Below are positions 545 to 36,350 of a stretch of 39,057 nucleotides of DNA, piece by piece. The translations under genes and the position numbers were made by a program. Each line of letters begins with the position of its first letter. The first letter of the stretch is position 1. Below the pieces are notes generated by a model. It worked only from the letters and a program-made list of their open reading frames with translations. It was not told the origin of the DNA and searched no databases. Where the stretch lies: the NCBI RefSeq assembly GCF_006345805.1, contig NW_021835699.1, positions 1 to 39,057 of the forward strand. Direction: 5' to 3'. The DNA is from Octopus sinensis (lineage: Eukaryota).

Positions 545-900
545 CTTTGGTATCTCTAGAGATCGAAATGAAGCGTGCTTCTTCTGGTCAGATATAACTC
601 AAAGAACTCGGAATTTAAAAAAACTGGGATTTCACAAGTTCTTATGTATATACTTAACTTATCCTAATTACTTAGTAAAAAGAAATAGATACACGTAAAG
701 ACATATATTCTCCCATTCATATAAATCTCTACAGAATTGTATATATTAGATGTTTCTTAAAAGAAATCTCTCCAGAGCAACTGGAAGCAACTCGAACGCG
801 GTATACTACGAGAAAATAACGTAACAACCAATGTCTCACCAATTATAAAATTTACACCAGATGTGTCGGCATCGAAGGAATTTAATTGTTCAGTTAGTTC
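545..900 (+). mobile_element. Decayed Penelope-like element, GIY-YIG C-terminal relic
   Basis: Colinear motifs across frames: NRYT*RH, STELYI (728-745), CRHRRNL (864-884), versus remembered PLE consensus RYNNH..STELSKYIW..KCRH. Confidence 0.55.
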
Positions 901-1307
901 TCCTATTGGTTTTCTATTCTCCAAACTTACGATGGTCTGCTTTTAAGAATAAGACACTTTTATGTCTGAACGTGTGATGGTGAGAAAATATATACATTTG
1001 AACGGCAATGGTTGCATTTAAGCTCCGGGAAGCAAAAATTTAACGGCTGCATAAATGTCACAAAGACAATTAAATCGTACGATGTTACGTTAAAACGTAT
1101 CACATGTACTTTACAGGCTGAAGATCTAATTTATGTAATCGGTCACAAGACAATATCGTTTATGCATCTGCACGTCCTCGTCCTCCATTTTCAAAAGAAA
1201 GTTGCTTATGCATAGACATGTAATACCCACACACACATACATACATACATATATGCGCACATATATGTGTGCGTGTGTGTATATACATATAAATATATAT
1301 ATATATA

Positions 1308-1601
1308 TCACCGTGATCACCGTGACCGACCAGGCTATCAGATGTTGCTACACATCGCTGATCACAATGCGCTATGCATTGTTTTAGCCTTAAAATGACG
1401 CCACCCCGCTGGCTAAGCGAGCAGGCCGACAGAAGAAAGAGAGAGAGAAAGTTGTGGCGAAAGAGTACAGCAGGGATGGCCACCACCACCCTGCCGGAGT
1501 CTCGTGGAGCTTTAGGTGCTTTCGCTCAATAAACACTCACAGCGTCCGGTCTGGGAATCGAAATCGCGATTCTACGACCGCGAGTCCGCTGCCCTAACCA
1601 C
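1308..1601 (-). mobile_element. SINE type C (tRNA-derived), head slightly truncated
   Basis: Near-identical to 31592-31897 and 33982-34292; ends in TCACGGTGA repeats. Confidence 0.9.
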
Positions 1602-1639
1602 ACACAGAAAAAGCATAACTGCAATCCAATATATATATA

Positions 1640-1682
<43 letters not shown>

Positions 1683-1730
1683 CTCATATACACACGTATT
1701 TGCGTGCACTCATATACACACACACAGACA

Positions 1731-1948
1731 CGAGGGTGGGTTGAAAAGATGTTGGCTTTGCGTAAAAGAAAATACAGGAAGATCAGTTCATTGTGGTTTT
1801 ACTCAACATATTCCCCTCTCAGGTTATCAGACTTATTGCAGCGGTCGTTCAGTTTTACAAAACCCTGTAAAAAAAGACTCAGAAGGTTGGGCCTCTAACG
1901 AGGCCTTTCGTGACACCTTTAAAGCTAGGAATTTTTCAGTACCCTTTG
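1731..1948 (-). mobile_element. Mariner-derived MITE (~220 bp)
   Basis: Imperfect TIRs CGAGGGTGGGTTGAAAA / TTTTTCAGTACCCTTTG followed by TA; minus strand encodes mariner C-terminus-like LNDRCNKSDNLRGEYVE*; related copies at 3232 and 35357. Confidence 0.8.
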
Positions 1949-2039
1949 TATGCATTATACATATGTAAATATATATATATTATAGCATGAGTTTTCATTT
2001 AAATATTTATGTCTCTGCTATCTCTCACCTTACCTACGA

Positions 2040-2231
2040 ACAAACAAGCGCGTGCGCACACGTACACGCACATGCACACACACACACGCACACACATGTA
2101 TTTACACAAATATATATGAATACAGACTTTTATATACATTTGTATGTGCTTGAATGTGTAAGTGAGTGTTTGTGTGTCTGTGTGTGTGTAATGTATTCTT
2201 TTACTCACCTATTATTAGATTGCAGTTATGC

Positions 2232-2265
<34 letters not shown>

Positions 2266-2545
2266 TGTGCTTGTGTGTGCGTGCGTGCATTCGTGTGTGT
2301 GCGAGCGTGCATTCGTGTGTGTGCGTGTATGTATGTGTGTATTAATAATACATACATATATACATACATATACACACGCACACACACAAACACACACACA
2401 CACACACATCCTTTCCACACACACACATATCCTTCCCATACACACATCCTTCCCACACTCACACATCCTTACCAACACACGCACCATTCTCACAATCACG
2501 TCCTTCTCACATATAAACACTCACTCACTCAAATACACACTTCTA
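2040..2545. repeat. Compound (CA)n/(TG)n microsatellite region
   Basis: Directly visible; source of the CV/HT-rich ORFs. Confidence 0.95.
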
Positions 2546-3231
2546 TCCAAAACAATACTTCATAATATTACATCATAAAGCAACTCGGGAACGTAGATGT
2601 TTCCAAAGAACAGATAAGAAAGCAAAGAGAAAAAGATGAAAAAAAATATATATAAGGAAAAGGAAAAAGCTCGAAGTCAAAACAGTGATGTACATATTTA
2701 CTACCATCAGTGGTACTACCATTCCTTCATTCCGAGTATGTCTGTCAAACGCTATATCAGAAGAACCGTATTCCATGGCATCATGATTGATGGTTCTTTT
2801 GATCACATTGGGTGAAACTGATCTTGAATCATGTTCGAACTCATTCTTACACAGCATGTAGGTGTGTAAAACGCATGTCTTTGAAATACGTTCCGTATAT
2901 TGTGTCCTTCCCAATCAGTCCAGACGAATACATGTACAAACATATCATAAACGCAAGCACAAACACACACACACACGCACATGTACACAAGCACGCATCA
3001 TATATACACAGACACACACATACACAGAAAAAAATGTACGTTCATTCTGTTTCCTGTTTCTCGTAAGCGTTGTTGTGCAATAAAGATGTTTGTTACGCAA
3101 CCACGCGAATTTCATGTCCGATCCTAATACTCGGCACCTTGGACGAATGGCTGCTGCTATAGCCTTGTTATCAATTTGGTAAATGGAAACTGTATAGAAG
3201 ACAGTGGGATACCTACATACATGCACACATA

Positions 3232-3448
3232 CAGAGGGGATTCTGTAAATGTTTCTGGCTTTGGGTAAAAAGATAATATAGGAAGATCGGTTAATTATGT
3301 TTCTATTCAACATATTCCCCTCTCAGATTCACAAACTTATTGCAGCGGTCCTTCGGGTTTTCTAAGCCCTGTAAAAGAAATCGGAATATTTGGCCTCCAG
3401 TTAGGCCTCTTGTGATACTCTTACAGCCAGGAACATTTCAGCACCCCT

Positions 3449-3450
<2 letters not shown>
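3232..3450 (-). mobile_element. Mariner-derived MITE, copy 2
   Basis: Colinear with 1731-1948; starts after TA, ends TTTCAGCACCCCTC. Confidence 0.8.
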
Positions 3451-3520
<70 letters not shown>

Positions 3521-3529
3521 ACACACACA

Positions 3530-3915: not shown

Positions 3916-3931
3916 ATTGCATTCATCCATA

Positions 3932-6555: not shown

Positions 6556-6569
6556 AATGAACGGACTAA

Positions 6570-7288
6570 GGCGGTGAGCTGACAGAAACGTCAGCACGCC
6601 GGGCGGAATGCTTAGCGGTATTTCGTCTGCCCTTACGTTCTGAGTTCAAATTACGCCGAGGTCGACTTTGCCTTTCATCCTTTCGGGGGTCGATAAATTA
6701 AGCACCAGTTACGCACTGGGGTCGATGTAATCGGCTTAATCCGTTTGTCTGTTCTTGTTTGTCCCCTCTGTGTTTAGCCCCTTGTGGGTAGTAAAGAAAT
6801 AGGTATTTCGTCTGTTTTTTTATGTTCTGGACTTTGCCTTTCATCCTTTCGGGTTCAATAAATTAAGTACCAGTTGCGTACTGGGATCGATCTAATCGAC
6901 TGGCTCCCTTCCAAAACCTTGTGAGTGGATTTGGTGGACGGAAAATGTGTGTGTGTGTGTGTGTGCCTTTGTGTCTGCTTGACAACAGGTTCTGGTGTGT
7001 TTACGTCCCGTAACTTAACCGTTCTGCAAGAAGATATCGATGGAATAAGTATCAGGCTTTACAAAAAATAATAAGCACTAGTGTCGATTCATTCGACTAA
7101 AGGCGGTGTCCCGGTGAGGCAGGGACACCGATGAGGCAGGGACACCGATGAGGCAGGGACACCGATGAGGCAGGGACACCGATGAGGCAGGACACCGATG
7201 AGGCAGGGACACCGATGAGGCAGGGACACCGATGAGGCAGGGACACCGGTGCGTCTAATGACTGAAACACGTAACAAATAAATAAAAA
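6570..7288 (+). mobile_element. Chimeric SINE: type A head plus ~1.5 units joined to a type B body/tail
   Basis: A sequence to ~6915, then CCTTGTGAGTGGATTTGG and the B-type tail containing a 17-bp minisatellite. Confidence 0.8.
7115..7249 (+). repeat. 17-bp minisatellite TGAGGCAGGGACACCGA x8
   Basis: Eight near-perfect units; unit 5 is 16 bp. Confidence 0.97.
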
Positions 7289-7332: not shown

Positions 7333-7537
7333 CTGTGTGTGTGTGTGTGTGTGTGTGTATGTTTGTGTGTCTGTGTTTGTCCCCCAACATCGCTTGACAA
7401 CCGACGCTGGTGTGTTTACGTCCCCGTAACTTAGCGGTTCCGCAAGAGACACCGATAGAATAAGTACTAGGCTTCCAAAGAATAAGTCATGGGATCGATT
7501 GGAGGCAGTCAAATGACTGAAACAAGTAAAAGAATAA
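7333..7537 (+). mobile_element. SINE type B 3' half
   Basis: (TG)n-GTCCCCCAACATCGCTTGAC...AATGACTGAAACAAGTAAAAGA. Confidence 0.88.
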
Positions 7538-7704
7538 ATGTTGAACGATCTTCTGATAATGTTGAGCCGTCTGTGACTGAAATTGAGCGGGCTTTGCCTA
7601 ACGTTGAGCAGGCTATGCTGAACGTTAAGTAAACTTCGTTAAAGACCGATCGCTGTTGATCAAATCTTGTTCAATTTCCAGAAAAGTTTGTCCAGTATTG
7701 AATA
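7537..7704 (+). repeat. Cryptic degenerate 21-bp tandem repeat (~8 units)
   Basis: AATGTTGAA/AATGTTGAG/GAAATTGAG/AACGTTGAG/AACGTTAAG at 7537, 7558, 7579, 7600, 7621; weaker units to 7704. Confidence 0.7.
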
Positions 7705-8308: not shown

Positions 8309-8524
8309 TAATTTTCTGGGACCCAGAAATTCTAACTGGGTCCCACCTGCAAGGTCATGTGCTGTTTATCTTGATATGAGATCACCATGTTGCGCACATA
8401 TGGCTGTGATGCAAGTGCCTAGTGTACCCTTATCGGACGGGTAGTCATGATGGGTATACTGGGCTTCGTATAAATTACCCCAGTGTCACTTTGATGGCAT
8501 GCACTACTCTCTCACTCAATAATG

Positions 8525-9700: not shown

Positions 9701-9769
9701 AGTTTGTGTAGAATGCGTTATAAAAGTATAATAAATCTTATAAACTGCACATGGCTCAACTTTTTTAGC

Positions 9770-10317
9770 GGGAGGGGGGTCTGTCGATTAGATCGAACCC
9801 AGTACGCAATTGGTGTTTAATTTATCGAACCCGAAAGGATGAAAGGCAAAGTTGACCTCGGTGGAATTTGAACTCAGAACGTAACGGCAGACGAAATCCC
9901 CATTTCGTATTTCTTTGCTGCCCACAAGGGGCTACACACAGAGGACAAACAACGACAGATAAACGGATTAAGTCGATTATAGCGACCCCAGTGCGTAACT
10001 GGTACTTATTTAATCCATCCCGAAAAGATGAAAGGCAAAGTCGACCTCGGCGGAATTTGAACTCACGTAAAGACTGAGGAAATACCTATTTCTTTACTAC
10101 CCACAAGGGGCTAAACACAGAGAGGAGAAACAAGGACAGACAAACGGATTAAGTCGATTATATCGACCCCAGTGCGTAACTGGTACTTATTTAATCGACC
10201 CCGAAAGGATGAAAGGCAAATTCGACCTCGCTGGAATTTGAACTCTGAACGTAAAGATAGACGAAATACCGCTAAGCATTTCGCCCAGTGTGCTAACGTT
10301 TCTGCCAGCACACCACC
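9770..10317 (-). mobile_element. SINE type A, three units, alternative tail
   Basis: Head at 10317; three B-box-containing units; last unit has GATCTAATCGAC. Confidence 0.88.
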
Positions 10318-10345
10318 TTAGTAATAATGATAATGATAACAATTG

Positions 10346-10560
10346 ATTCTTTTCTAAGATTGGCACAAGGCTTGAAGTTGCGGAGGAAGGAAATTCGGCA
10401 ATTAATTTGATCTCCCTACTTAGCTAGTACATTATTTTATCGATTCAAGAGGGATGACAAGTAAAGACGACCTCAGCAGGATATGAACACAGAATGTTGA
10501 AAATCGAAACAAATTCTGTAAGGTGTTTCTTCCGACGCGCATACGATTCTATAAATCCAG
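10346..10560 (-). mobile_element. Old diverged type A-like SINE
   Basis: GGCACAAGGC...TTTATCGA...GGATGA...GACCTCAGCAGG..TGAAC aligns loosely to the A monomer with the alternative tail. Confidence 0.6.
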
Positions 10561-10754: not shown

Positions 10755-11275
10755 GAACGAGAGAGAATATATTGCCTTCAGTGAATGTGTATGGAAATCT
10801 TTCCTCTACTTCCCACTCTAAGTTTTCTCCCATCATCTTAAGTGTATAAGATTTAAAAGAGAGCAGCGTATCATTCTAGTTATAAAGTGCATCGTTCTTT
10901 ACTCAAATTAATTCGAGGTAAAATATCGGTTTCTCTTGTTAGACAACATTTTTGATAGGTTTTCTTTAAAATCTGTGACCAACAGCATTATTGATAAAGC
11001 TAGTAAAATCGGATAGACGTAATTGCTGGCGTGCTTTTCTTACATTGATAGCGTGTTGCGAATGATATCGGTCGAAATGCGATTGAAAAACTATTTGAAG
11101 AGAGGCAAATCAACAAGCAGAGATTCCTTGGCGTTACTCAACAATACTTATAACATCAAATAAGCATAAGATTCCCTCACCCAAATTATTTCCTTCAACC
11201 CGTTGTGTGTTGGAATAATTACATCAAATCAAATAACGACGGTGCCGACATGAAAAATATTTCTTATGCAATAGG
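10755..11275 (+). mobile_element. Decayed Penelope-like element relic (linker + GIY-YIG)
   Basis: KSVTNSIIDKAS (10969-11004), YID (11041-11049), NNTYNIK* (11140-11163), RCRHEKYFL (11240-11266). Confidence 0.6.
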
Positions 11276-11689: not shown

Positions 11690-13000
11690 TGTCCATGATG
11701 ATAAGATTATAGAGATGAACTATGCAAATATAACAGTTCTTATACGATTTACGGTCGCTGCATGATAACGAAACCCTTAATATTAAATACCGCTGTGTAC
11801 CAATCTATTTACTTATCTACCTGTAAACAAATACCATTTATAATCACGAGAGAACTGTAAACATCAACACTGGATATTTATCGCAACGTGTGTTAATGTT
11901 CCTCTATTGAATTAAGAAGCATAAAACATAACTTCGAAAGTGCTTAATACCTTTTAGTGTTGTTAGACTAGGAGGAGTTGCCCGCACCCACGACATCCTT
12001 AGATGTGTCAGAGACTGAATGAAAGAAAGAAAGAAAGATATGCTCAGACTAGAGACCTGGTTCAATATTGCAACAGAGAAGCTTGTACTGAAGGCACTCA
12101 AGGATCAGTAGGTCGTGCTATAGCGAGGGACGAATTAAACGTACCGGCCAAAAACAGTTGTTCCTCGGAAGAATCTTCACAGAGCTCCCATCTAACTTCT
12201 CAAATTTCTTTCTCTACCCTCTCTCTCCATTTATATATACATACACATACATAAAAAAAGCAAACGAAAAAGTAGGAAATTATTTTTAAACCTCACAACG
12301 TGGGATGTTCAGCAACAGTACTTTGTAGTAAAAATTATTTGCCAATATAACATGTCAGTTTTGTTTTGAGCTGAGTTGGAGTGCTAGACTCCCTTGTTTC
12401 AAAATATAAGGACACAGATCGTGTCGTATAGCCAGCTGGAGACGATGTCTCCTGGGGCTAAATTACAGCAACATTAGTGCTAAACCAGGACTGCCGTGTT
12501 ATGTTAGCAAACAATCTTTACTAAAAACGATGCTAGTCTATCGAGGTAACCGTAAGTAATATCACAGTTAAATGAAGATATGCAACGAAAATACTTCCCG
12601 AGAGGACCGTTAGCGTATTATTTTCATTCTCACTTTGGTACAATATCCCAATTTAATAGGGAAGCGTATAGCGGGGTATATCGATCCATGCATTTGCATA
12701 GGAGTGAAAATATGGTAGAAAATATAGTTGAAAGTAGGAGTGGCTGTGTGGTAAGTAGCTTGCTTACGAACCACATGGTTCCGGGTTCAGTCCCACTGCG
12801 TGGCACCTTGGACAAGTGTCTTCTACTATAGCCTTGAAAAAAATGGTTAAGTAACCCTTTTAGCAGTCAAAAGAAGATTATTATATTTTCGTAGATAAAT
12901 GTAAAAGGAAAATGAAAGTTATTCCGTTTCGTTTTTCATGTTTCCTAAAATGTGAATTCAATTTGAAAAGAAATCAGCGATTACCGTTGTTAATCAGAGA
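11690..13000 (+). mobile_element. Decayed Penelope-like element (RT motif to GIY-YIG end)
   Basis: YRDE (11708-11719; consensus YRDD), ETWFNIA..KALKD (from 12052), VGNYF, KLF..NMSV, LVYR (12533-12544), FNREAY; interrupted by a SINE B head. Confidence 0.6.
12734..12835 (+). mobile_element. SINE type B head fragment
   Basis: GGAGTGGCTGTGTGGTAAG...GGGTTCAGTCCCACTGCG...CTATAGCC. Confidence 0.88.
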
Positions 13001-14753: not shown

Positions 14754-15243
14754 ATTAGGTGTATATATTGCTGCAGATTTAAGAAGTCTACTTCGTAATC
14801 ACGTAGTGTAGAGTTCAGTCCTATATCGGGTTATTGGATGGTGTGTTCTAGAATATTCACTACTTGGGAGTTTATTTGGTAGACGGAAAGAAACCATGCA
14901 AAGTTTTTAAAGTATGTATGTATGTATGTATGTATGTATGTTCTTTACTGTTTTTCATTATTCAACATTTTGCTTTGCAGAAAGAACTAGTTTCTAAGAT
15001 ACAAAGCTTCATCGTTGGAATGTAGATAGAGAGATAACGAAAACCATGTCACATTTTAAATTCGAGAAAAATCTTGCATCTGTTCCGCGTAAAGATTGTA
15101 TTTGTAATGTACGAATTAGTTGACTGATTTCGTTTTCTGAAAACCCAAGCTTATCCAGTCTGACAGTTAGGCATTGACTTACAAAAACCAAGTGCTTCAA
15201 TTCTTAGGGATATAAATGTAAGTTTGAAACCTGGATGGACATA

Positions 15244-15472
15244 TGTTTCTTTATTACCCACAAGGGGCTAAAAATAGAGGGGACAAACAAAGACAGACAA
15301 ACGAATTAAGTTGATTACATCGACCCCAGTGCGTAACTGGTACTTTATTTATCGACCCCGAAAGGATAAAAGGCAAAGTCGACCTCGGCGGAATTTGAAC
15401 TCAGAACGTAACGGCAGACGAAATACCGCTAAGCATTTCGCCCGGTGCGCTAACGTTTCTACCAGCTCGCCG
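15244..15472 (-). mobile_element. SINE type A monomer
   Basis: 11-bp TSD GGATGGACATA (15233-15243 / 15473-15483). Confidence 0.92.
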
Positions 15473-15499
15473 GGATGGACATAGCCAATCTTTGGCTAC

Positions 15500-15580
15500 T
15501 GTGGTAGACACTCAGCCAAGGTGACACACAGCGAGACTGAACCCAGAACCATGTGGTTAGGAAGTATGCTTCTTACTACA
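15500..15580 (-). mobile_element. SINE type B head fragment (diverged)
   Basis: CCAAGGTGACACACAGCGAGACTGAACCCAGAACCATGTGGTT. Confidence 0.7.
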
Positions 15581-15589
15581 TGCAAAAAT

Positions 15590-17095
15590 AAAAGCTGTGC
15601 TTCGCAACCTCAGTATTTGCACTTGTAGTTCATTTCGTGTTTCGGTAATGCTATACTCAACAGGAATAAAAGACGGCGAGCTGGCAGAAACGTTATCACG
15701 ACGGGCGAAATGCGTAGCGGTATTTCGTCTGCCGTTATGTTCTGAGTTCAAATTCCGCCAAGGTCGACTTTGCCTTTCATCCTTTCGGGGTCGATAAATT
15801 AAGTACCAGTTACGCACTGGGGGTCGATGTAATCGACTTAATCCCTTTGTCTGTCCTTGTTTGTTCCCTCTGTGTTTAGCCCCCTGTGGGTAGTAAAGAA
15901 ATAGGTATTTCGTCTGCCATTACGTTCTGAGTTCAAATTCTGCCGAGGTCGACTTTGCCTTTCATCCTTTCGGGGTCGATAAATAAAGTACCAGTTTCGC
16001 ATTGGAGTCGATATAATCGACTTAATCCGCTTGTCTGTCCTTGTTTGTCCCCTCTTGTGGGTAGTAAAGAAATAGATATTTCGTCTGTTGTTACGTTCTG
16101 AGTTCAAATTCCGCCAAGGTCGACTTTGCCTTTCATCCTTTCGGGGTCGATAAATTAAGTACCAGTTACGCATTGGGGTCGATGTAATTGACTTAATCCC
16201 TTTGTCTGTCCTTGTTTGTCCCCTCTATGTTTAGTTCCTTGTGGGCAGGAGAGAAATATATACTCAACAGGAATATCTCGGTCCACTGATCGTATCAAAT
16301 ATCGCAACTGGCACACTAGAGGCGTGTGCAGTCAGTCGTCTCCCACTGCTCGAGAGAAAATTCGGGCTCATAATTCACAAAATTATAAATGCACATTCAG
16401 ACGCAGTTTATTACATGTTTACAAATTCCCTTGACATATTTGCTCAAAATCGTGCATATATACACGCACTCACATAAACAGAAACAGACACAAACACACA
16501 CACACATACATACAGCCGTCCATAGGAATATATGTTCTCAAATATCTCATTTTATATAACTTTATATCCTCGCATTTATCACTACTCGCCAGCGAATATG
16601 TAAATATATAACAATACTTATTAAGTAGAAGGCTGATAGCACAAGGGAACAAATTTCACGGTGGAATTAATAATAATATAAAAAAGGAAACAATGCTTCC
16701 ATGAGCGAGACGTTCTCTCGCCTTCACGAATGAATCTTTGGCAATCAAGCGAATGCAGTTCTTAATCGATAAAGTTTAAGATACATGTGTGCGTAGGTGT
16801 GTCTGTGTGTGTGCGTATGCGTATGTGTGTATGCATGTGTGTATGTAGCAGAAGTTACAGTGTCCCAAATATGTGAACAGAGATCGATTGTGGAACGCAT
16901 TTTAGAAAGCAAGTGAGAATTGCTAGAATATCTACTGGCCTTGTTTGGGAAGTTCAACCTTTCGATGTACTTTTAGCAACGTTATAGATGTTAGATCACC
17001 ATTAGAAATAATCACAAATAATAAAGACCGATATTTGTTAGAACGTCTGAGCATTTTACCGATGTACAGGGACGACAAAATGAAACGATCTCTGC
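15590..17095 (+). mobile_element. Decayed Penelope-like element interrupted by a SINE A trimer and microsatellites
   Basis: LRNLS..LYS, KIINAH (about 16379-16396), K*ELL, PCLGSSTFRC, LEIITNNKDRYLL..MYRDDK, versus ISNLS..IINAHN..KWEII..PY..SKRC..LLNKR..CRH. Confidence 0.55.
15672..16258 (+). mobile_element. SINE type A trimer
   Basis: Units at 15719, 15904 and 16075; 17-bp TSD TATACTCAACAGGAATA (15652-15668 / 16259-16275). Confidence 0.93.
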
Positions 17096-17850: not shown

Positions 17851-17930
17851 AAAGAGTGGTCTCTTGTTGATTCACCAGAAGCAATAGCTTACAGTACTCA
17901 ATACAAATACAAAGTGCTCCTTAGCACATC

Positions 17931-17979
17931 ATGACAAAGGTTTCGGTCTCCAGTTGCTCGTTTCCGATCATCAGTTCAT
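17931..17979 (-). ncRNA. PLE-type hammerhead ribozyme relic with intact core boxes
   Basis: Minus strand ATGAA-CTGATGA-TCGG..CC-GAAA-CCTTT-GTCAT; helices imperfect. Confidence 0.5.
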
Positions 17980-19097
17980 ACACAAACCCTGATTTTCTTT
18001 TGTATATTCACTGTCTGATTAGTTTTCGAAACACGAAACGCAATTTCGAAAGAAACTCTCAACCTTATGTTCTTTCGCTTAAAATCTTTTGGGAACGACA
18101 ACGTGCAAAAACAGCTGCTTCAAGCTTTCCGCTTTTAATTTCATTTCTGATTCTAGTGGTTAATGTTATTATAAACGTCGTGAACTCCATACTATCGACG
18201 CCATGAAATTGTGTTGCTTTTCAGCAATGTTCCAAAATAATACTTGTAAGTAATAATTTAATTAATGCTTTTAATTATTGTTTTTAAAAACAATGATCAT
18301 GCGTCTGCGCAGATACATACTTATACACGTATGTACACTCCTAGACACACATATATACACGGAATTACATACTCGTGTATACATATGCACATATGTTTAC
18401 ATACATATACTTACAAATACAGTGTACATTTAAACACATAAGAGGCATCAATCATAGGATTCCTTGCACGCTAGAAATGACAGTTAAATTCCAAACCACT
18501 ATCAGGGTAAAATTTCGAAACACTGTATTTGTATGAATAATATGTAGTCTATTGTCTAAATTTTTACATGCTAGGCCACTGGTAATAGAAATTTTAATTA
18601 TTTCTAATTACCCTTTGCTATTATTAATTACACATATACTTAGATGTAGAAATACAGACGCGCAACCACACACGTCAAAACATATATATCGATAAAACTT
18701 ATTTAAACATTTCGAAAGCCAATAATTATATTTTGGTGATAACAAAGGAGGATTGGCTATTACGTCCCATTTGGCGAATGGTTCAAAAGAGATGTAGTGC
18801 TTGCCGAGTGTTGTGCTATATAGACTATATGAAGATGACATGTGCAGAAGTGTGAAACTTCACATCAGCTGCGTATGAATGCGAGTAGGGTTAGTATTAA
18901 CATTTATAAAATCATTAGCGTACGTGCACTATACTATAATTTCTCAGAATCACTATTAAAATAATAAAATAAAAAAAGTGGTCCAGAAGCTTACATCTCA
19001 ACCATGTGGTTTTTCGGTTCAGTACCAGAGACCAACCAAATCTCTAACCGACCCAATGTTTCTGGGTGAATTTGGTAAACAGAATTAAAACTCATCG

Positions 19098-20526: not shown

Positions 20527-20634
20527 CACACACGCAATCACGCACTTACACACAAACACACAAGCACACACACGCGCACTATTTATCAGATTAGACGTGT
20601 GTCCGTGGGGCTGCTAAAGTACATACATAATACC

Positions 20635-21051
20635 TATTTCTTTACTTACCCACAAGGGGCTAAACACAGAGGGGACGAACAAGGACAGACAAACGGATTA
20701 AGTCGATTACATCGACCCCAGTGTGTAACTGGTACTTAATTTTATCGACCCCGAAAGGATGAAAGGTAAGGTCGAACTCGGCGGAATTTGAACTCAGAAC
20801 GTAGCGTCAGACGAAATACCTATTTCTTTACTACCCACAAGGGGCTAAACACAGAGGGGACGAACAAGGACAGACAAACGGATTAAGTCGACTACATCGA
20901 CCCCAGTGTGTAACTGGTACTTAATTTATTGACCCCGAAAGGATGAAAACGAAAGTCGACCTCGGCGGAATTTGAACTCAGAACGTAACGGAAAACGAAA
21001 TACGGCTACGAATTTCACCCGACGTGCTAACGTTTCTGCCAGCTCGCCGCC
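20635..21051 (-). mobile_element. SINE type A dimer inserted in a PLE relic
   Basis: Two units; ~20-bp imperfect TSD TAAAGTACATACATAATACC (20615-20634) / TAAATTACATGCATAATACC (21053-21072). Confidence 0.92.
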
Positions 21052-21689
21052 TTAAATTACATGCATAATACCACAGTGCAAACAATTGCCAGTCATAGGG
21101 CAGTTATCATTTACGCTGCATTTGCACGATTTCTTATTGTAGGTTGATGCCAACGATTGTTAGTTATGTAGCCGGAACCAGGTGTAGCTAAGATGGTAAG
21201 GTTGGTACATTTAGAACGAAGAAAGTCAATGTTATTTCTATTGCAGTCAGAGACAGCTAATTTATTACAGTTATTGATAATGGAATTTATTCCGGATTTA
21301 TGTTTATTTACATTATGAAGATCAGCATTATGATTATCAACAGTAGTTTGCCACATTACCACATTATGTGGATCACTTACTATGTTTTCTTGGGTGGACG
21401 GCAAGGCCTGCTTTGCTCTGTGCCACAATTCCACAATGACAGGTAAAATTTTTCATTTGGAGGAGCAGCGTTTAGATAGCGTGGCTTCATGCTTACACAA
21501 TGTTGGCCCAGATGTTGGAATCGACTTTGTACGGATCTTTGAAGTGAAGACATATATTATATATGTGTGCATTATATATATATTTGTAAGTATGCATATA
21601 TGTATTATATTTGTATGTATGTATATATATATATAAAATATATATATGCATATATATATACATATACATATACATATATATATATAATA

Positions 21690-22931: not shown

Positions 22932-23124
22932 GTGTATGACTGCGCTTGCATATTTATATGTATGTAAGCACTATTCCACAGTATATAGATTAATATTTCT
23001 TTGTGCATAGATGAAAAGAAAAGTATGTACTGTTTAAATTTAATTTAAATATTTGTATACAAATGAATAGAAACTTATAAATTTTATAGCAAACTTAAAC
23101 AGCCATAATGAATAGGATTTGAAT

Positions 23125-23215
23125 GTATTCAGAACGTCATTCCAAATTTGTATAAGTCTACATGTATTCTTAGAATTATCTGGTGTTTTGAAAATATAAT
23201 TTCATAACTGAATAA
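23125..23215 (+). repeat. Dispersed AT-rich repeat (second copy 25766-25857)
   Basis: GTATTCAGAAC..CATTCCAAATTTGTATAAGTC.ACATGTAT.CTTAGAA shared between the two sites. Confidence 0.8.
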
Positions 23216-25157: not shown

Positions 25158-25946
25158 ATAGCCACGTCCACTGAGATTAAAATAAGGGCAAATATACTTG
25201 GTGATAATCAGTTATACTACCAAAATGACTACCACCCACAAAACAAAAGCAGACCACACGCTCATAGATTCGTATACTATACAGACATACAGACATGTGG
25301 ACAAATGTACAGCGCATTTACCTCCATTAACATTATATTACATATGTGCACTCTAGTCTATTGTTTCTTGTTGCGCCATTTTAATATATATACATACATA
25401 GATACATACATACATACACACACATATATATGTATGCGGTTGTTTATATATATACATATGTATATATATATATGCATGTACATTATATATATACATTATA
25501 TATATATATATATGTATATATATATACATTATATATATATATATATGTATATATATATACATTATATATATATATACATATGCGTGTGTGTATGTATGTG
25601 TGTTACTCCAACACATACAATATGTTTTTGTTTATGAAAACACAAAAAAATATCCACATTTAATAATTGCGTGATTGTATTGTTCACATTTCATTTAAAT
25701 ATTTCAAGAGCGAGTAACGTGTTTAATGCCAAAACTGAAACACACAAAATAAATGAGAGTTCTACGTATTCAGAACAACATTCCAAATTTGTATAAGTCC
25801 ACATGTATCCTTAGAAATATCTATTATTTTCAGAACATAATTTCATAATTGAATAACTTGTTTATAAAAGAGCGGGCCCATCATATATCATATAGATGGC
25901 CAACACGTCTATTACTATCTAATATATATATATATATATATTATAT

Positions 25947-26093: not shown

Positions 26094-26150
26094 ATATATA
26101 TATATATGTGTGTGTGTGTGGTGTGTGTGTGTGTGTGTGTTGTGTGTGTA

Positions 26151-26867
26151 TTTGTTTGTTTGAAAATGCACCTGAATTTGAAAAGATTGTAATTGTTTTC
26201 AAATGTATTAATTTATATACATACCAAACTAGTTTGAACAATTTTTGTTTATCGATGGTATATAAGTGCGAGATTTAAAAAAATAATTTAAATTGCAATG
26301 TAGCAAACATGTTTACATGGTTAAATGTTCACAAAATTCAACAATATCAAAAATGGTCGGCGAAGAACATAAAGTGTTGGTCATCATTTATAAATGTTTA
26401 AATTTTAACAAAAATGATCGGCGAAGAATATCAAAACAACGTGGATCAACATGCTTAAATGATTAAATTTTCACAACGTTCAATAGTATCAGAAATGAAC
26501 GGCGAAGAATATAAAAAATATGGATCACCAAAAGTTCGGTCATACTGAGTTAAGTGAGAGAAAAGAAGAAAAAAAAAAAAAAACAGGAATGGAGAATGTA
26601 AAGAAAACGGGTTTTGTTACAGATTCTGTCATCTTGGATTCTTTTTCCCGTCGCGTGAAGGGCTTAGCAGTTATGATATTATTGAATTTTCTGAACATTT
26701 AACCGTTTAAACATGTTTTCTACTTCACAATGTAAAATTTTAAAAATTCCATACGTTTATACCATTTAGAAACAAAACATTGATGAAACTAGCTTGGCAT
26801 GTATGGAAATAGATATATTTAAAAAAACAAATAGTTTTTCAAATTCAGGTTTATTTTCAACAACAAA
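26151..26867. mobile_element. Foldback/MITE-like element with ~200-bp imperfect TIRs and internal subrepeats
   Basis: Arms 26151-26349 and 26674-26867 are imperfect reverse complements; AAATG..CGGCGAAGAA at ~26352, ~26412 and ~26493. Confidence 0.8.
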
Positions 26868-26949
26868 TTCTCCTATATTTTTTTCCTGAGTGGAAATTTT
26901 GGCCCTTCTTTTCTTATATATATATATATACACACTCTTCGATTTCAGA

Positions 26950-27200: not shown

Positions 27201-27599
27201 CCACATGAGAGATCATTAAATATTCCATCTATAGTTCAAAAAATTTATAACATTTTATTCATATTACGTAACTTTTTCTCGATTTTATTAAATTTTGTTT
27301 GAAGTTATCGTTAGGTTTTAAGCTATAGATATGGCATTTTTTCAGTTGCCAATATCGGAGGAGACTGATATGAATATAATCATATCAATAAATAATTAAT
27401 TAGATTAATTAGATTATGTTGTAAATTAAATCCCACTTCCATTCAGAATATAGATGTGATATACATATGTGTGTATATGTGTGTGTAGTATATGTGTGTG
27501 CGTGCGTGTATGTTGTATATGTGTGTGCGTGCGCGTATATATATATATATATTATATATATATATATATAGATATATATATATATATATATATTATAAA

Positions 27600-27950
27600 T
27601 GTAAACAAACAAACGAAGTTTGCTTTAGAAGCGTTGAGATGTCTTAGAAAGTCAAAGAAGTGAATTTAAATTCTGAAACGCAAGATGATGTTAATAATAT
27701 AAACTGAAAAGCTACCCCTATTTTGCAGAAATAATTTGAAGTCATGTACCGAGGAGCCTATAATAAGGGCTAAATGTCGCTATCTGCAATTAATAAGACA
27801 TCTAAACAGAAGTATAAGGAATTATATTGAAATATGGATATATTGTTTCATATGCTCTTTCACTCATCAGAAAAAAGGCCTCTCATAACAAAAACAAGTT
27901 ATAAACCCTGAAGCGATTATAACCAGCAACGACAGTAAGAGATCGAAGAC
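27600..27950 (+). mobile_element. Possible PLE GIY-YIG end relic
   Basis: NIN*K, NNLKSC, AKCRY (27769-27783); hammerhead-like CTGAAG..GATCGAAG at ~27908-27949. Confidence 0.4.
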
Positions 27951-28372: not shown

Positions 28373-28845
28373 CACGTATATTGTTTAATAATTTTCTGAA
28401 AAAGAAAAAAAAAAAGAAATTCAAAATCCAGCCACCACTTACTTAACTTATCTGTTTATCAGCTCAAAGTTGTTTCTGTTCTTGTCTTGATAAAAAATAT
28501 TGTTTTCAATATATGATTTTTCATTTGATCGATTTCATTTCCTTTTCTCTCTTTATGCATAATTTTCTTATGAAACTATTATTGATTTACTTAGTTTATT
28601 TCAGCGCTCTCATTTCTTTTCACTTTCTATGTATCATAATTTATTTAATATCCTCCATGAAATAGTTTCTTATATCAACTGTTTAACAGTAATATTTTGC
28701 CATATATAAATGCTCGGAAGGCTATAAAATTCTGGTGCTGACGTGCAACCCAGTGTTCTAGATTTGATATCAGTTTTCGGCATGACATTATAGGATATGT
28801 TTTGAGCTATAAGCTTAGGTTGGTCAATATTATAGAAGTAATTAA

Positions 28846-29360
28846 GCTGGCGAGCTGGCAAAAGCATTATCACGTCCAGGAAAATGCTTAGCGGCAGTTC
28901 GTCAGTCTTTACGTTCTGAGTTCAAATTTGGCCGAGGTCAACTTGCCGTTAATCTTCCCGGGTTCGATAAAATAAGTTTGTCCCTTCTGTGTTTACCCCC
29001 TTATGGGTAGTAAAGAAATAGGTATATCGTCTGTCTTTACGTTCTGAGTTCAAATTCCACCGAAGTTGACTTTGCCTTTCATCCTTTCGGGGTCGATTAA
29101 ATAAGTACCAGTTACGCACTGGAGTCGATATATTCCACTTAATCCGTTTGTCCCTTCTGTGTTTAGCCCCTTGTCGGTAGTAAAGAAATAGGTATACCGT
29201 CTGTCTTTACGTTCTGAGTTCAAATTTCACCGAAGTTGACTTTGCCTTTCATCTTTTCGAGGTCGATAAATTAAGTACCAATTACCTACGCGGGTCGATC
29301 TAATCGACTGGTCCCCTCCCCCAAAATGTAGGTCCTTGTGCCTAAAGAAGAAAAAGAATA
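28846..29360 (+). mobile_element. SINE type A, three units, alternative tail
   Basis: Head then three GAGTTCAAATT units; ends GATCTAATCGACTGGTCCCC...CCTTGTGCCT..AGAAAAAAGAAT. Confidence 0.88.
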
Positions 29361-29559: not shown

Positions 29560-29850
29560 GAACACATTGCTGTTTATTATTTGTCACTTTATCGAAGACG
29601 TGCACCGATCTGCTCTTCCTTCAAAGAGAAGCAGCTAAGTGCATGTAATAGACAATGTCGGAGGCTGCAACTGACTGACTGATCAGACAACAAAGAAAAC
29701 AATTGATTAATGTGTTAAGTATTTGTTAACAGTAAAAGATGAAATAAAACCACTGCATGCTTTTATATTGGCGAAATGTCTCTTCCAAAGTAGAACATCT
29801 GTTTCAGCCTATGATTTCATATCAAGCATTCTTGCTGGATCAATAAGACA
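29560..29850 (+). mobile_element. Possible PLE GIY-YIG relic
   Basis: H..SSFKEK, NSKR*N (29728-29745), FYI. Confidence 0.3.
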
Positions 29851-29935: not shown

Positions 29936-30237
29936 CCCGAAAAGATGAAAGGCAAATTCGACCTCAGTGAAATTTGAACTCACAACGTAACGGCAGACGA
30001 TATACCTATTTCTTTATTACCCACAAGGGGCTAAATACAGAGAGGACAAACAAGGACAGACATAGATATTAAATCGATTACATCGACCCTAGTGCGTAAC
30101 TGGTACTTAATTTATCGACCCCGAAAGGATGAAAGGCAAAGTCGACCTCGGCGGAATTTGAACTCAGAATGTAGCGGCAGACGAAATACCGCTAGGCATT
30201 TCGCCCGGCGTGCTAACGTTTCTGCCAGCTCGCCGCC
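29936..30237 (-). mobile_element. SINE type A, ~1.4 units
   Basis: Head at 30237; second unit truncated at a CA tract. Confidence 0.9.
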
Positions 30238-31149
30238 TAACAAATAAATGATATTGTAAATGATCCTTTGAAAAAAACACACTGGTCCATCGGCTTCGGC
30301 CGATGCTCACACACACACACATACATAAACATGCATACACACAAAGTATCCGTTTAACACACTCGCATACGACAATATGATACCACAAAGGAATAGATGA
30401 TTATCTTATAAATATTAACAATAATATGCTGTGGGCTCATAACTGAGTGTCTCAGTAACGACTTAGAGCTTCATCGGGCGTGTAATTCTACACTGAGGTT
30501 ATTGGTTTTGCAGTGGCCAAGCGAAATATATATATATATGGATAAAACTATAACTAGAGAACTTACTTGAACTTGAGCATGCAGGCATTTAGACTTAGGG
30601 GTTAGATCTGTCATGAGGCCCAAGTTTCATACGGTTGATGTTTAACTTGGTTTGACTAGTGTCAAAGTGATTGAGATTACCAACACTTCTGAACCGGGCG
30701 CTGGTCTGTCGCAGGGTTAACCTGCCGATTATTGATGGCACTCAGAGTTCAATCGAATCGAACAACGTAAAATAAAGTACACAAACAAACCGCTCGTCCC
30801 GGAATCGAAACCGCGGTTCTTTGATTGTGAGACCTTTCGCCAACAGTCATTTAGGTGATGGAAATTTAACTTGATCACACAGGAAAGAGAATGATTTACA
30901 AAACGAAGCTAAATACAACAACGAGGAACTTAATAGAACCTTATCACATTTCTGATACCTTACAAAATTCACACACATGACAAAAAAAAAATGTTACACA
31001 TTAAAACTGGATCCATAATACGGTTAATATGATCAGATAGGTTTCCTTTCAATATTTACCATTTTAATTCAATGAACATCTTCCTTTAATGAGATAACTA
31101 ACGGATAATTAATTTGGCCTTAGATTTGTAGCGTGTGGCAATTTAAAAG

Positions 31150-32182: not shown

Positions 32183-32526
32183 GGTAGCCTTCAACTAACA
32201 CTATCTCCTCCGAGACCTCTCAAGTTGACCAAAATTGAGAGAATGATAGAAGAAGGCTTGCTCTTCCTTCCGTAGAAGTAAATATTCAAACCGGAGCATG
32301 TTAACAGCAAAAATTATTTACATCAAAAAGGTGTTTTTTTTTATGAAAATCCCTATTTTTTTACAATTTTTTGACTGCTGTGTCGCCATTTTTCGGTGTA
32401 TTTCAACTAGAAAAACGTTCACTTAAAGTGAATAACAAGCTACATAGTGCAAAATTTTTACTTTTCGAAAATTCTAATTCTAAAGAGTCGAAACAAACCC
32501 GAGCAACGCCGGGCGATACTGCTTGT
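32183..32526 (+). mobile_element. Non-autonomous Helitron-like element, 3' portion
   Basis: Subterminal hairpin CCCGAGCAACGCCGGG (32498-32513) followed by GCTTGT (canonical CTAG end mutated); 5' limit uncertain. Confidence 0.5.
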
Positions 32527-32529
32527 ATA

Positions 32530-32722
32530 TTATCAGCTACCAAGGGACATGTTCAATTGATTACAGTCAAACAACTGACAAGCAAATCGGTGGTATTGAG
32601 CAGAATATTTGCTGTAGCCCATCTTTTATACCAAGACAAAATAATGTCTATGACAACACTTCCAATTAATTAAGATCAGACGACATGAGATCCAGTGCCT
32701 GGTACTGTATCAAGGCATTTAA
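32530..32722. repeat. Unclassified repeat end abutting (ATT)n
   Basis: Sharp junction with (ATT)n; recalled as a common octopus repeat, not verifiable within the window. Confidence 0.3.
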
Positions 32723-32748
32723 CATTATTATTATTACTATTATTATTA

Positions 32749-32821
<73 letters not shown>

Positions 32822-33089: not shown

Positions 33090-33381
33090 CTTCTTCTCCT
33101 TCCCTCTTCTTCTTCTTGTTCTTCTTGTTCTTCTTTTTCGTCTTCTTCTTCTTGTTCTTGTTCTTGTTCTTCTTTTTCGTCTTCTTCTTCTTCTTCTTCT
33201 TCTTCTTCTTCTTCCCTCTTCTCCTTCTTCTTCTTCTTCTCCATCTTCTTCTTCCCCTCCTCCTCCTCCTCTTCTTCTTCTTCTCCTTCTCCTTCTTCTT
33301 CTTCTTCTTCTTCTTGCCTTCTTCTTCTTCTTCCTCTTCCTTCCGCTTCTTCTTCTTCTTCCTCTTCCTTCCTCTTCTTCT

Positions 33382-33413
<32 letters not shown>

Positions 33414-33630
33414 TTCTTCTTTTTCTTCTCCTCCTCCTCCTTCTTCTTCTTTTTCTTCTCTTTCTTCTTCTTCTTCTTCTTCTTTTTCTCTTTCTCCTTC
33501 TTCTCTTTCTCCTTCTTCTTCTTCTTCTTCTTCTTCGTCTTCTTTCTCTTCTTCTTCTTCTTCTCCTCCTCCTCCTTATTCTTCTTCTTCTCCTTCTTCT
33601 TCTTCTTCTTCTTCTTCATCTTCCCCCCTC
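33090..33630. repeat. Compound (CTT)n/(CCT)n polypyrimidine array
   Basis: Directly visible; source of the poly-S/F/L/K/E ORFs. Confidence 0.95.
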
Positions 33631-33981
33631 CTCTCCGAAACGCCGCTGCCTAGTACCATAAAGGACAATAATTATAACAATTATTCTCTCATCATCATAT
33701 CTTTCAAATCTAATGATACTTCGATCGCTGCTCCTCCCTTAAAACACCCCGAATTTCATCCTCTTTCGTTCGCATTCAAGCCACAGGCATCAATAAAATG
33801 ATTCTTTGACGATTCTCATCTCTTGTTGAAGAAAGACGAGTGCTAGACATCATCAAATGAGGTAAACACCGCAAAGATTTCGCATCTCCATTTGCTATCC
33901 ATGGTTGTTGCAAAAATTTACGATAATGAGATTGTGTTTCTGAGTTCAGCATTATAATGCAGTGAAACTGTATTTCAATAT

Positions 33982-34292
33982 CACCGTGCTCACCGTGATC
34001 GACCAGGCTATCAGATGTTGCTACACATCGCTGGTCACAATGCGCTTCGCAGTGTTTTAGCCTTCAAATGACGCCACCCTGCTGGCTATGCGAGCAGGCC
34101 AACAGAAGAAAGAGTGAGAGAAAGTTGTGGCGAAAGAGTACAGCAGGGATCGCCAACACCCCCTGCCGGAGCCTCGTGGAGCTTTAGGTGTTTTCGCTCA
34201 ATAAACACTCACAACGTCTGGTCTGGGAATCGAAACCGCGATCCTACGACCGCGAATCCGCTGCCCCAACCACTGGGCCATTGCGCCTCCAC
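33982..34292 (-). mobile_element. SINE type C, full length
   Basis: 12-bp TSD GTATTTCAATAT (33970-33981 / 34293-34304). Confidence 0.93.
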
Positions 34293-34402
34293 GTATTTCA
34301 ATATGTTGCTCATTTCTTCAGTTGCCTTCTTAAACCATTATAAAATCCTGTTTCAAGTATCTTATCACCCAACCTTGGTTAGCGAGACAAAATTTTAAGT
34401 AG

Positions 34403-34605
34403 GGTGCAGGAGTGGCTGTATGGTAAGTAGCTTTCTTACCAACCACATGGTTCCAGGTTCAGTCCCACTGCGTAGCACCATGGGCAAGTGTCTTCTACTA
34501 TAGCTTCGGGTCGACCAAAGCCTTGTGAGTGGATTTGGTAAACGGAAACTGAAAGAAAGAAAGCCCGTCTCGTTATATGTATATATGTGTATTTATATTA
34601 TATTG

Positions 34606-34651
<46 letters not shown>

Positions 34652-34871
34652 TGTGTCTGTGTTTGTGTTTGTGTCTGTGTTTGTCTCCCCAACATCGCTT
34701 GACAGCCGATGCCGGTGTGTCTACATCCCCGTAACCTAGCGGTTCGGCAAAAGAGACTGATAGAATAAGTACTAGGCTTACAAAGGATAAGTCCTGGGGT
34801 CGATTTGCTCGACTAAAGGCGGTGCTCCAGCATGGCTGCACTCAAATAACTGAAACAAGTAAAAGAGTAAA
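34403..34871 (+). mobile_element. SINE type B, full length
   Basis: tRNA-like head, central TA/TG tract, tail GGCGGTGCTCCAGCATGG...GAAACAAGTAAAAGAG. Confidence 0.92.
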
Positions 34872-35356
34872 ACAAAAAAAAAAAGAGTAGAAGAGATTAC
34901 CATTGTGAGGCAACTCCATTGACGGGATTATCTCACTGAACTCTTTCTTAAAGCTGCTGACTGTTCCAGTGTCGCTGAGACTGGCGGAAGAAAAGAGGAA
35001 CGCTATATTAAGATTCAATGTATATCCCAAATGCTTGCACAGAAGTGAATCCGTTAAAATAAACCAAAGCAAGTCGAGGTGTTAAAGTATTAAATCGGAC
35101 GACAGATAATGTTTACATCTTAAAAAAGAAGCTGCATGAAACTTAGTTATCTGCCGAGAGACACGTATAATCACTGGCATCATATAAAAACACGCAATCT
35201 ATGAGAGTACCAAAGCGTTCAGTGGCAATTCTTTCACTTTCAAGATAGCACAATTCGTATACCCATTAATCTCCTACTATCACAGTTTCGTATCGTATAA
35301 ACACACATCTACAATATACGAAGCATTAGACTTAAACCACGGGCGATTAACTAATA

Positions 35357-35548
35357 TCAGGGGGTGCCGAAGAGAAGCTCCTGGCTTTAAGGGTATCGTG
35401 AACGTGTTGGCTTGAGGCTCAACCTTCCGAATTCTTTTACAGGCTTTAGGAAAACTGAAAGACAGCTGCAATAAGTGTGTACACTTGAGAGAAGAATATT
35501 TTGAATAAAATGAAAACTATCTGATCCTCCTGTATTTTCTTTTGACAA
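35357..35548 (+). mobile_element. Mariner-derived MITE, copy 3 (right TIR lost)
   Basis: Reverse-oriented match to 1731-1948; cut by a SINE A fragment. Confidence 0.75.
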
Positions 35549-35550
35549 GT

Positions 35551-35707
35551 GCCGCTACGTTCTGAGTTCAAATTCCGCCGAGGTTGACTTTGCTTTTCAT
35601 CCTTTCGGAGTCTATAAATTAAGCACCAGTTATATACTAGGCTCGATCTAATCGAATAGCTCCACACCCAACATAAATTTCGAGTTTTGTGCCTAGAGTA
35701 GAAAAGG
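35551..35707 (+). mobile_element. SINE type A 5'-truncated monomer, alternative tail
   Basis: GTTCTGAGTTCAAATTCCGCCGAGG...GATCTAATCGA...GTGCCTAGAGTAGAAAAG. Confidence 0.85.
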
Positions 35708-35849
35708 TTCTAGTCAACACTACCAAACCTTATTTTATTATCCGGGTTTTAAATGGTCCATTGTCAGTTATGTTATTTTTTTTTATTTAGAACGGTTTTG
35801 TGATCTATCATAAGACATAGCTCTGATACATGTTGGCAGACCTTTCAGG

Positions 35850-36350
35850 CTGATATCTGTAATTTTATTCTGCATGTCTCGACATTCATGTGATCGAGTG
35901 TTACACTTCAAGGATGATAAAAAACTATGGAACCTTATCGAAGACACAATCGGTTACGGTGCATACCACGCTTCAAAGAAATCTTAGCTACGGAACGACG
36001 AAAATTTTTAACGTAATGAAAAACAATGTTATGAGTTTCTATGAATTCACGCACTTAAATAGAAATAAAGAAAAAAATAAAGAAAAATCTTGAAATTACC
36101 ATAACTGCTTTTAATTTATTTAATGATCTGTGGTAAAATACATGTGAATTCAGATTTATCGAGCTGCGGTACCATTTCTCTCTTGTATGGAATCTTAATC
36201 GTTAGTGCTATTTGATTGAAGGACTCGTTCTATTGTAAACATTCTGCGTTGCAATCATCTTCAATTTTACCATTCTTGTTTTCTATAGCAATAAAAGATC
36301 CAACCATGAAAAAAAAATATATATATAGGAAAAGAAGAAGACAAGAATAT
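35850..36350 (+). mobile_element. Possible PLE linker relic
   Basis: WNLIED, KIFN..NNV..FY, TCEFR, NR*CYL.EGLV. Confidence 0.35.

What the first reader, a model, noticed from the sequence alone, without database searches (positions are those of the whole stretch)
545..36350. Hidden graveyard of Penelope-like (Naiad-type) retroelements makes up much of the 'unique' DNA
Seen: many non-SINE, non-microsatellite stretches yield, across stops and frameshifts, motifs in the same order: (D)GAEVCEL, YRDD, YKPYR, HP, FNRNN.V.SY, CxCx5CPxxGxCL, IVYKA, YIG, STEL, KW, CNLC, CRH. About 16 relics occur on both strands. Established: this is the RT-thumb-linker-C-terminal GIY-YIG layout of PLEs. Inference: an ancient, very large PLE burst forms the substrate of this region, now too diverged for nucleotide repeat masking, so it would probably be annotated as unique sequence. 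The consensus is from memory and the weaker relics could be pareidolia.
Basis: partly seen in the sequence, partly recalled or inferred. Interest (0 to 1): 0.72.

Follow-up and report, generated by a model that had tools for sequence, protein, structure and literature searches.

The report
Few Hydra-type Penelope relics, no graveyard
Of about sixteen claimed fossil jumping-gene fragments only one passes statistical tests; it and an overlooked non-coding tail match the known Hydra group of Penelope-like retrotransposons (not Naiad) and cover only a few percent of this stretch of likely octopus DNA, which is ordinary.

Summary
Mostly pareidolia around one true relic. A frameshift-aware profile of 57 natural proteins found one hit above all nulls: 21079-21150 (-), 34.8 bits, against null maxima of 31.4 or less. 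The other two 'best relics' (10960-11270, 11700-12700) score at chance; the second contains a young non-coding repeat. Sixteen planted relics decayed by up to 0.4 substitutions/site would have been seen; at 0.5 or more the test is blind. Proven Hydra DNA is about 4% of the 19 kb 'unique' DNA; with all possible PLE-style stubs about 12%. Genome-wide, Hydra coding relics are about 0.7-1.4% of a 600 kb sample, so one per window is ordinary, and an intact 99.7%-identical family exists. Octopus Hydra elements and 6.8% PLE content are published; this scan noted Hydra ends elsewhere in this genome before.

The parts
21075..21345 (-). Decayed coding relic of a Hydra-clade PLE: post-thumb region and the CxCx5C linker; cut at the linker by the tandem SINE at about 20615-21070; the endonuclease part was not found
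   Evidence: Profile 34.8 bits at 21079-21150, above all nulls; tblastn E 5e-5; 61.5% over 312 nt to L005; peptide scores 16.8 bits on the Hydra profile and -3.6 on the canonical PLE profile; 19 of 19 fetched genome hits of the peptide carry Hydra segments of 45 bits or more
17865..18724 (-). 3' UTR of an older Hydra family ('family C'), 5'-truncated inside the UTR, ending next to (CT)n(TA)n; hammerhead core remnants only; interrupted at about 18379-18649
   Evidence: Genome copies at 69-77% identity, many sharing the right end; 13 of 20 copies have a Hydra ORF end directly upstream in sense; family DNA profile 427.7 bits; the ribozyme descriptor finds no intact hammerhead in the window and Rfam finds none
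18379..18649 (.). Stub of a hammerhead-bearing short repeat family, inserted as an inverted pair inside the Hydra UTR; likely PLE-mobilised, retrozyme-like
   Evidence: 77-85% genome matches; longer copies L205 and L209 share about 600 nt, repeat an arm at 442 and 468 nt spacing, and L205 holds a hammerhead between the repeats
12269..12545 (+).
   Evidence: 82-94% matches, 2341 first-look candidates for the 2.4 kb query; a hammerhead lies directly upstream of the arm in L180, L185 and L141; the unit recurs at 353 and 355 nt in L177 and L180; no parent ORF shown
27595..27735 (-). Stub of a TA-flanked repeat family whose longer copy has a tRNA-like head and an inverted arm; PLE link not shown here
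   Evidence: 81-89% genome matches; ARAGORN calls a tRNA in L232, 1 of 3 loci scanned
26150..26930 (.). Microsatellite-flanked inverted pair of a dispersed repeat; parent element unknown
   Evidence: Arms match each other at 76-77% and genome copies at 79-83%; the one neighbouring PLE ORF (L233) is separated from it by a SINE, so the link is unproven
10960..11270 (.).
   Evidence: p 0.2-0.4
11700..12268 (.).
   Evidence: p 0.34-0.62
886..972 (-). Weak, unresolved candidate resembling the end of the Hydra thumb region
   Evidence: 24.3 bits, within window-wide null maxima; local p 0.02 and 0.2; no genomic relative

Best explanation
The window holds two dead fragments of Hydra-clade Penelope-like retrotransposons (one coding, one 3' UTR) and at least two short hammerhead-family stubs that PLE proteins likely inserted, while the other claimed relics score at chance and are likely pattern-matching on AT-rich DNA. 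Shown: the fragments, their family links, their decay and the later SINE, microsatellite and stub insertions. Inferred from PLE biology (PMC8557442): a Hydra protein nicked a TA-rich site with its C-terminal GIY-YIG endonuclease and reverse-transcribed a ribozyme-cut RNA from its 3' end; synthesis often stopped early, giving 5'-truncated or inverted-pair insertions. The copies then decayed neutrally. The UTR family is about 0.13 substitutions/site from its ancestor (half of 22% pairwise difference, Jukes-Cantor; rough). The density is what this genome shows everywhere.
For: One hit above nulls with the main profile. Sub-threshold hit counts equal permuted-profile nulls: 13 vs 14.7 at 20 bits, 42 vs 37.9 +/- 6.2 at 18 bits. 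Sixteen planted relics give 3-9 hits of 28 bits or more at decay 0.4 and 6-11 at 0.3; the window has 1. Sixty fixed 10-kb genome samples: 9 hits of 50 bits or more, 8 (3,904 nt, 0.65%) after dropping L147, a canonical PLE; 0 with the reversed profile. That predicts 0.5-1 per 39 kb. UTR linkage 13 of 20. Intact 710-aa ORFs with RWK, DKT, YRDD, CxxC and CxH and a hammerhead upstream in 11 of 14 full-length copies.
Against: The test is blind at 0.5 substitutions/site or more (planted and real counts overlap), and the planted copies came from families close to the profile. Against 5-mer shuffles alone the window had more 18-bit hits (42 vs 30.7 +/- 3.7), an excess that vanished with reversed sequence and permuted profiles. 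With the mixed profile the true relic (31.1 bits) was only at the top of the null range (1 of 20 nulls higher). CRH and WFNPP-like motifs are nominally enriched. L002 and L005 were found with the relic as query, so their similarity is partly selected. Only about 7.4 kb of the window was searched by DNA against the whole genome; the rest only against a 1.19 Mb library, so further non-coding PLE ends can be missing.
Confidence: 0.8

Rival explanations
1. One reading: a much older layer of Hydra copies, 0.5 or more substitutions/site from any family sampled, underlies much of the single-copy DNA.
For: Hydra copies are very abundant (14,171 first-look candidates for one endonuclease query) and span many ages; the genome sample shows an excess of weak hits (114 vs 90 at 24 bits or more); candidate 886-972; nominal CRH and WFNPP excess.
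Against: No excess of weak hits in this window; the named best relics fail; at such decay short motifs would rarely survive to be read by eye (inference).
Confidence: 0.12
2. The relics are Naiad or canonical (Neptune/Penelope-type) PLEs.
For: Naiads are listed for Octopus species; canonical PLE copies occur in the genome sample (L147, L144, L142, L138).
Against: The relic peptide scores -3.6 bits on the canonical profile against 16.8 on Hydra; the best window hit of the canonical profile (28.7 bits) is within its permuted nulls (5 of 20 maxima higher). Relatives have a C-terminal endonuclease, DKT and hammerheads. No Naiad-specific profile was built.
Confidence: 0.03
3. Even 21075-21345 is a chance look-alike of the cysteine linker.
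For: The scoring core is 24 codons; with one of the profiles it is matched by the top null.
Against: Above 70 of 70 null maxima with the main profile; DNA similarity to L005 extends about 200 nt beyond the motif; 79-82% DNA identity to L002 over 61-75 nt.
Confidence: 0.05

Closest known systems
Hydra clade of C-terminal EN+ PLEs, including Hydra-1_Obim of Octopus bimaculoides (Craig et al. 2021, PMC8557442; section 11 and Files S1, S2 read)
   Same: Single ORF of about 710 aa, RWK, DKT, CxCx5C linker, CxxC and CxH around the endonuclease E and N, hammerhead in the terminal repeat, microsatellite-flanked ends.
   Different: That paper lists one octopus Hydra family; here at least three DNA families plus many singletons were seen, with an estimated 36,000-68,000 coding fragments genome-wide. 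A 15-nt piece of the Hydra-1_Obim hammerhead matched none of the loci held. No full sequence comparison with Hydra-1_Obim was made. The two printed copies of the youngest family lack the second linker cysteine.
Naiad PLEs (PMC8557442 sections 5-7)
   Same: PLE reverse transcriptase, GIY-YIG endonuclease, (TA)n preference, remnants in cephalopods.
   Different: Endonuclease N-terminal, DKA, CCHH present, no canonical hammerhead, 3.4-4.4 kb: none fits the relatives of the window's relic.
Penelope-like fraction of Octopus vulgaris (Bonar et al. 2026, PMC13282606; first third of the text, passages and the whole supplement read)
   Same: PLEs are 6.83% of the genome in 190 families, with an old expansion and 336 recently active insertions; the window's 2-6.5% is in this range.
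   Different: That annotation does not name Hydra (0 hits in text and supplement).
Metazoan non-LTR retrozymes (PMC7229834, passages read; bioRxiv 10.64898/2026.07.22.740005, first fifth read)
   Same: Short non-coding units of a few hundred bases with a type I hammerhead, proposed to be non-autonomous PLE derivatives; fits the families of 12269-12545 and 18379-18649.
   Different: Only partial tandem repeats were seen, not full dimers; the window stubs lack the ribozyme; circular RNA was not tested; they could be terminal repeats of an ORF-bearing PLE not reached here.

Membership tests
Hydra PLE | CxCx5C linker | tested here: met
   Present in the window relic; 50 of 57 full-length homologues, 0 of 38 canonical PLEs
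Hydra PLE | GIY-YIG endonuclease C-terminal to RT | tested here: inconclusive
   Met in genomic relatives (L097, L092, L063); the window relic itself lacks the endonuclease part
Hydra PLE | RWK and DKT motifs | tested here: met
   In relatives: L097 and L092; RWK 35 of 57, DKT 49 of 57 homologues; these regions are not preserved in the window
Hydra PLE | CxxC and CxH beside the conserved E and N; no CCHH | tested here: met
   In relatives; conserved columns. My CCHH regular expression was uninformative (4 of 38 canonical, 2 of 57 Hydra-like), so absence of CCHH rests on reading the printed proteins
Hydra PLE | Canonical hammerhead in the terminal repeat | tested here: inconclusive
   Met in two younger families (14 copies; 11 of 14); not intact in the window's UTR or in any of 20 copies of its family
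Hydra PLE | Insertion into (TA)n | tested here: inconclusive
   The window UTR ends about 15 nt before (CT)n(TA)n; several family copies end in TA or CA repeats; not counted against a null in a microsatellite-rich genome
Hydra PLE | RT phylogeny with named Hydra families | not tested
   No tree built. L097 is 42% identical to a Hydra vulgaris protein (P0072) and 22-26% to canonical PLEs
Naiad PLE | N-terminal endonuclease | tested here: not met
   Relatives have it C-terminal
Naiad PLE | DKA motif and lack of canonical hammerhead | tested here: not met
   DKT; hammerheads present
Canonical C-terminal EN+ PLE (Neptune type) | DKG and CX2-5CxxC linker | tested here: not met
   38 of 38 canonical proteins have both; the relic scores -3.6 bits on their profile
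Non-LTR retrozyme (stubs at 12269 and 18379) | Tandem 150-450 bp units each with a type I hammerhead | tested here: inconclusive
   Unit spacing 353-355 and 442-468 nt with one hammerhead between partial repeats; no full dimer seen
Non-LTR retrozyme (stubs at 12269 and 18379) | Expressed as self-cleaved linear and circular RNA | not tested
   No reads laid

The most novel reading that the evidence does not exclude
Hydra PLEs and their ribozyme-bearing non-coding passengers have colonised this genome in repeated waves up to the present (tens of thousands of coding fragments, about 90,000 hammerhead motifs by extrapolation), and an older layer below current detection makes up a large share of the DNA that annotation calls unique or unknown.
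Probability: 0.12. Interest if true: 0.5.

Novelty: new member of a known kind. Interest (0 to 1): 0.2.

Why it matters
As claimed, little: the window is ordinary repeat-laden intergenic DNA. Two side points have modest use. Pfam-A as held here returns nothing for intact 710-731 aa Hydra proteins (0 families for 3 of 3 at E 0.02), so domain-based annotation can miss this clade. And Hydra appears far more abundant and more recently active here than the single octopus family in print suggests. Three paper searches showed no copy-number study of octopus Hydra elements, but they cover open-access papers only.

Tried and rejected
tblastn with 111 natural proteins: only 21061-21168 stood out; other clusters matched the reversed control. 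A genome-specific protein profile built from 301 fragments was too flat to be useful: it missed the true relic. Joining 21075-21345 and 17865-18724 as one broken element (same strand, right order): no endonuclease DNA was found between them and the family C profile did not hit the coding relic, so they are treated as separate insertions. 10348-10549, first taken for a Hydra UTR, is an old SINE copy. 3067-3215 and 7502-7670 hit Hydra profiles only through other repeats that appear to be inserted in the source copies. 12269-12545, first read as a MITE, has a hammerhead and a one-sided tail in longer copies. Pfam on 107 stop-free frames of 42 aa or more: one irrelevant hit at E 0.018. Rfam: no family at gathering score in the window. 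Genome protein searches with the peptides at 850-1017 and 11099-11272 gave no Hydra-linked relatives. Rows dropped before counts: L147 (and L144 at the 35-bit level) as canonical PLEs; five loci matching the inserted stub and the self hit were left out of the 20 UTR loci.
Full report
Setting. Microsatellites and low-complexity DNA take 12,344 bases, repeats present more than once in the window a further 7,598, and 19,115 bases remain 'unique'. No stop-free frame of 42 aa or more in that DNA has a meaningful Pfam hit (1 irrelevant hit in 107).

Which clade the motifs describe. Craig et al. 2021 (PMC8557442; abstract, sections 5, 6, 7, 11, 12 and supplement Files S1-S2 read) define Naiads by an N-terminal GIY-YIG endonuclease, DKA, CCHH and no canonical hammerhead. 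They define Hydra by a C-terminal endonuclease, RWK, DKT, a CxCx5C linker, CxxC and CxH motifs, no CCHH, a hammerhead and (TA)n targets.

Reference set. The 35-aa peptide at 21055-21159 (-) drew 67 genome matches at E 10 or less; all 19 non-self loci fetched carry Hydra segments of 45 bits or more. One such frame retrieved 111 natural proteins; 57 full-length ones gave a 714-column profile with the Hydra motifs. A canonical PLE profile was made the same way from 38 proteins.

Test of the relics. A frameshift-aware codon-level aligner was run on the excised unique DNA. One site passes: 21079-21150 (-), 34.8 bits, against maxima of 30.0 in 40 shuffles and 31.4 in 30 permuted or reversed profiles. 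It extends by DNA to 21345 (61.5% over 312 nt to L005). Counts of weaker hits match the permuted-profile null (13 vs 14.7 at 20 bits; 42 vs 37.9 +/- 6.2 at 18 bits), although they exceed simple shuffles (30.7 +/- 3.7), which destroy low-complexity structure. The named relics 10960-11270 and 11700-12700 have local p of 0.2-0.6 and no signal against 157 genomic Hydra segments. 886-972 (-) stays unresolved. The canonical profile finds nothing above its nulls. No Naiad-specific profile was built.

Power. Sixteen natural Hydra fragments of 300-800 nt planted in reversed window DNA give 9-14, 6-11 and 3-9 hits of 28 bits or more at added decay 0.2, 0.3 and 0.4; at 0.5 and 0.6 they give 0-4 and 0-1 (8 replicates each). 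The window has 1. So the claim fails for relics up to about 0.4 substitutions/site from sampled families and cannot be judged beyond.

17865-18724 (-) is the 3' UTR of an older Hydra family: 13 of 20 genomic copies lie directly behind a Hydra ORF end in sense, copies are about 79% alike, and the window copy ends beside (CT)n(TA)n. Its hammerhead is degenerate. Two stubs, 12269-12545 and 18379-18649, belong to short non-coding families that carry a hammerhead in longer copies, recur at 353-355 and 442-468 nt, and insert as inverted pairs, the first with a one-sided tail. This fits PLE-mobilised retrozyme-like elements (PMC7229834 passages; preprint 10.64898/2026.07.22.740005 first part); an earlier scan note (e1-9536097) prompted this reading. 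Three more inverted-pair or TA-flanked repeats (26150-26930, 27595-27735, 30360-30560) may be of the same kind, but no PLE parent was shown.

Budget. Proven Hydra DNA is 817 of 19,115 unmasked bases (4.3%); with the two hammerhead-family stubs 1,300 (6.8%); with all three doubtful pieces 2,230 (11.7%). As spans this is 2.2-6.5% of the window. All of these pieces except the coding relic are found by ordinary DNA search. Only about 7.4 kb was searched by DNA against the whole genome, the rest against 1.19 Mb of loci, so the non-coding share is a lower bound.

Genome context. First-look candidates number 14,171 for an endonuclease query and 5,587 for an RT query (not copy numbers). In 60 fixed 10-kb samples, 9 hits reach 50 bits (0 with the reversed profile), 8 after dropping one canonical PLE, 0.65% of bases. 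At 35 bits there are 21 hits, 19 after dropping two canonical ones, against 4 null hits, about 1.4%. That is 36,000-68,000 fragments genome-wide and 0.5-1 per 39 kb. Canonical PLE coding DNA adds about 0.8%. A curated Octopus vulgaris annotation gives 6.83% Penelope-like DNA (PMC13282606 supplement). A family with intact ORFs and 99.7% identity shows recent activity, so the history is repeated waves, not one ancient burst.

Mechanism. Shown: fragment identity, orientation, truncation, decay and nesting. Inferred from PLE literature: endonuclease nicking at TA-rich sites, reverse transcription primed there on a ribozyme-processed RNA, early termination and inversion. The fragments are likely inert.

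Verdict. Observation partly confirmed (1 of 3 named relics; 1 site in the whole scan). Interpretation partly supported: PLE yes, Naiad no, graveyard no at detectable ages. Earlier notes of this scan reported Hydra ends elsewhere in this genome. New members of a known kind; interest 0.2.

Noticed in passing
L084-L110 (e.g. L097 = G000:C2:88213361-88216657): A very young Hydra family: open frames of 720-728 codons in many copies, 99.7% mean pairwise identity, hammerhead upstream in 11 of 14. Likely active. Both printed copies lack the second cysteine of the CxCx5C linker that older members keep.
   Followed up: partly
L111-L170 (60 x 10 kb genome sample): A type I hammerhead descriptor matches 20 times in 600 kb and 0 times in the reversed sequence, about 90,000 motifs genome-wide by extrapolation.
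   Followed up: no
L061:213-2969: One 919-codon open frame joins the thumb and endonuclease of a canonical PLE to a 5'-truncated Hydra ORF, probably a nested in-frame insertion.
   Followed up: partly
L041-L077 (family A): A second Hydra family has long, variable asparagine-rich insertions before and after the thumb and a hammerhead with a long stem II.
   Followed up: no
window 15-530, 6565-6912, 9747-10322, 15246-16258, 20615-21070, 28828-29341, 29949-30238: A SINE-like repeat whose 170-185 nt body occurs in tandem copies, about 20 units in the window. Resembles the octopus OK-type SINE (recalled, not tested).
   Followed up: no
window 23091-23215 and 25732-25856: A 125-nt stretch present twice in the window, with no match in the 1.19 Mb locus library.
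   Followed up: no
window 30360-30820: Two old dispersed repeats (65-87% identity to genome copies); the first occurs as an inverted pair in L239.
   Followed up: partly
window 14967-15236, 29672-29835, 32201-32312, 32405-32700, 8333-8496: Further dispersed repeats inside the 'unique' DNA, unclassified.
   Followed up: no
window 7111-7248: A GC-rich 17-nt minisatellite, 8 copies at 97%, at a SINE tail.
   Followed up: no
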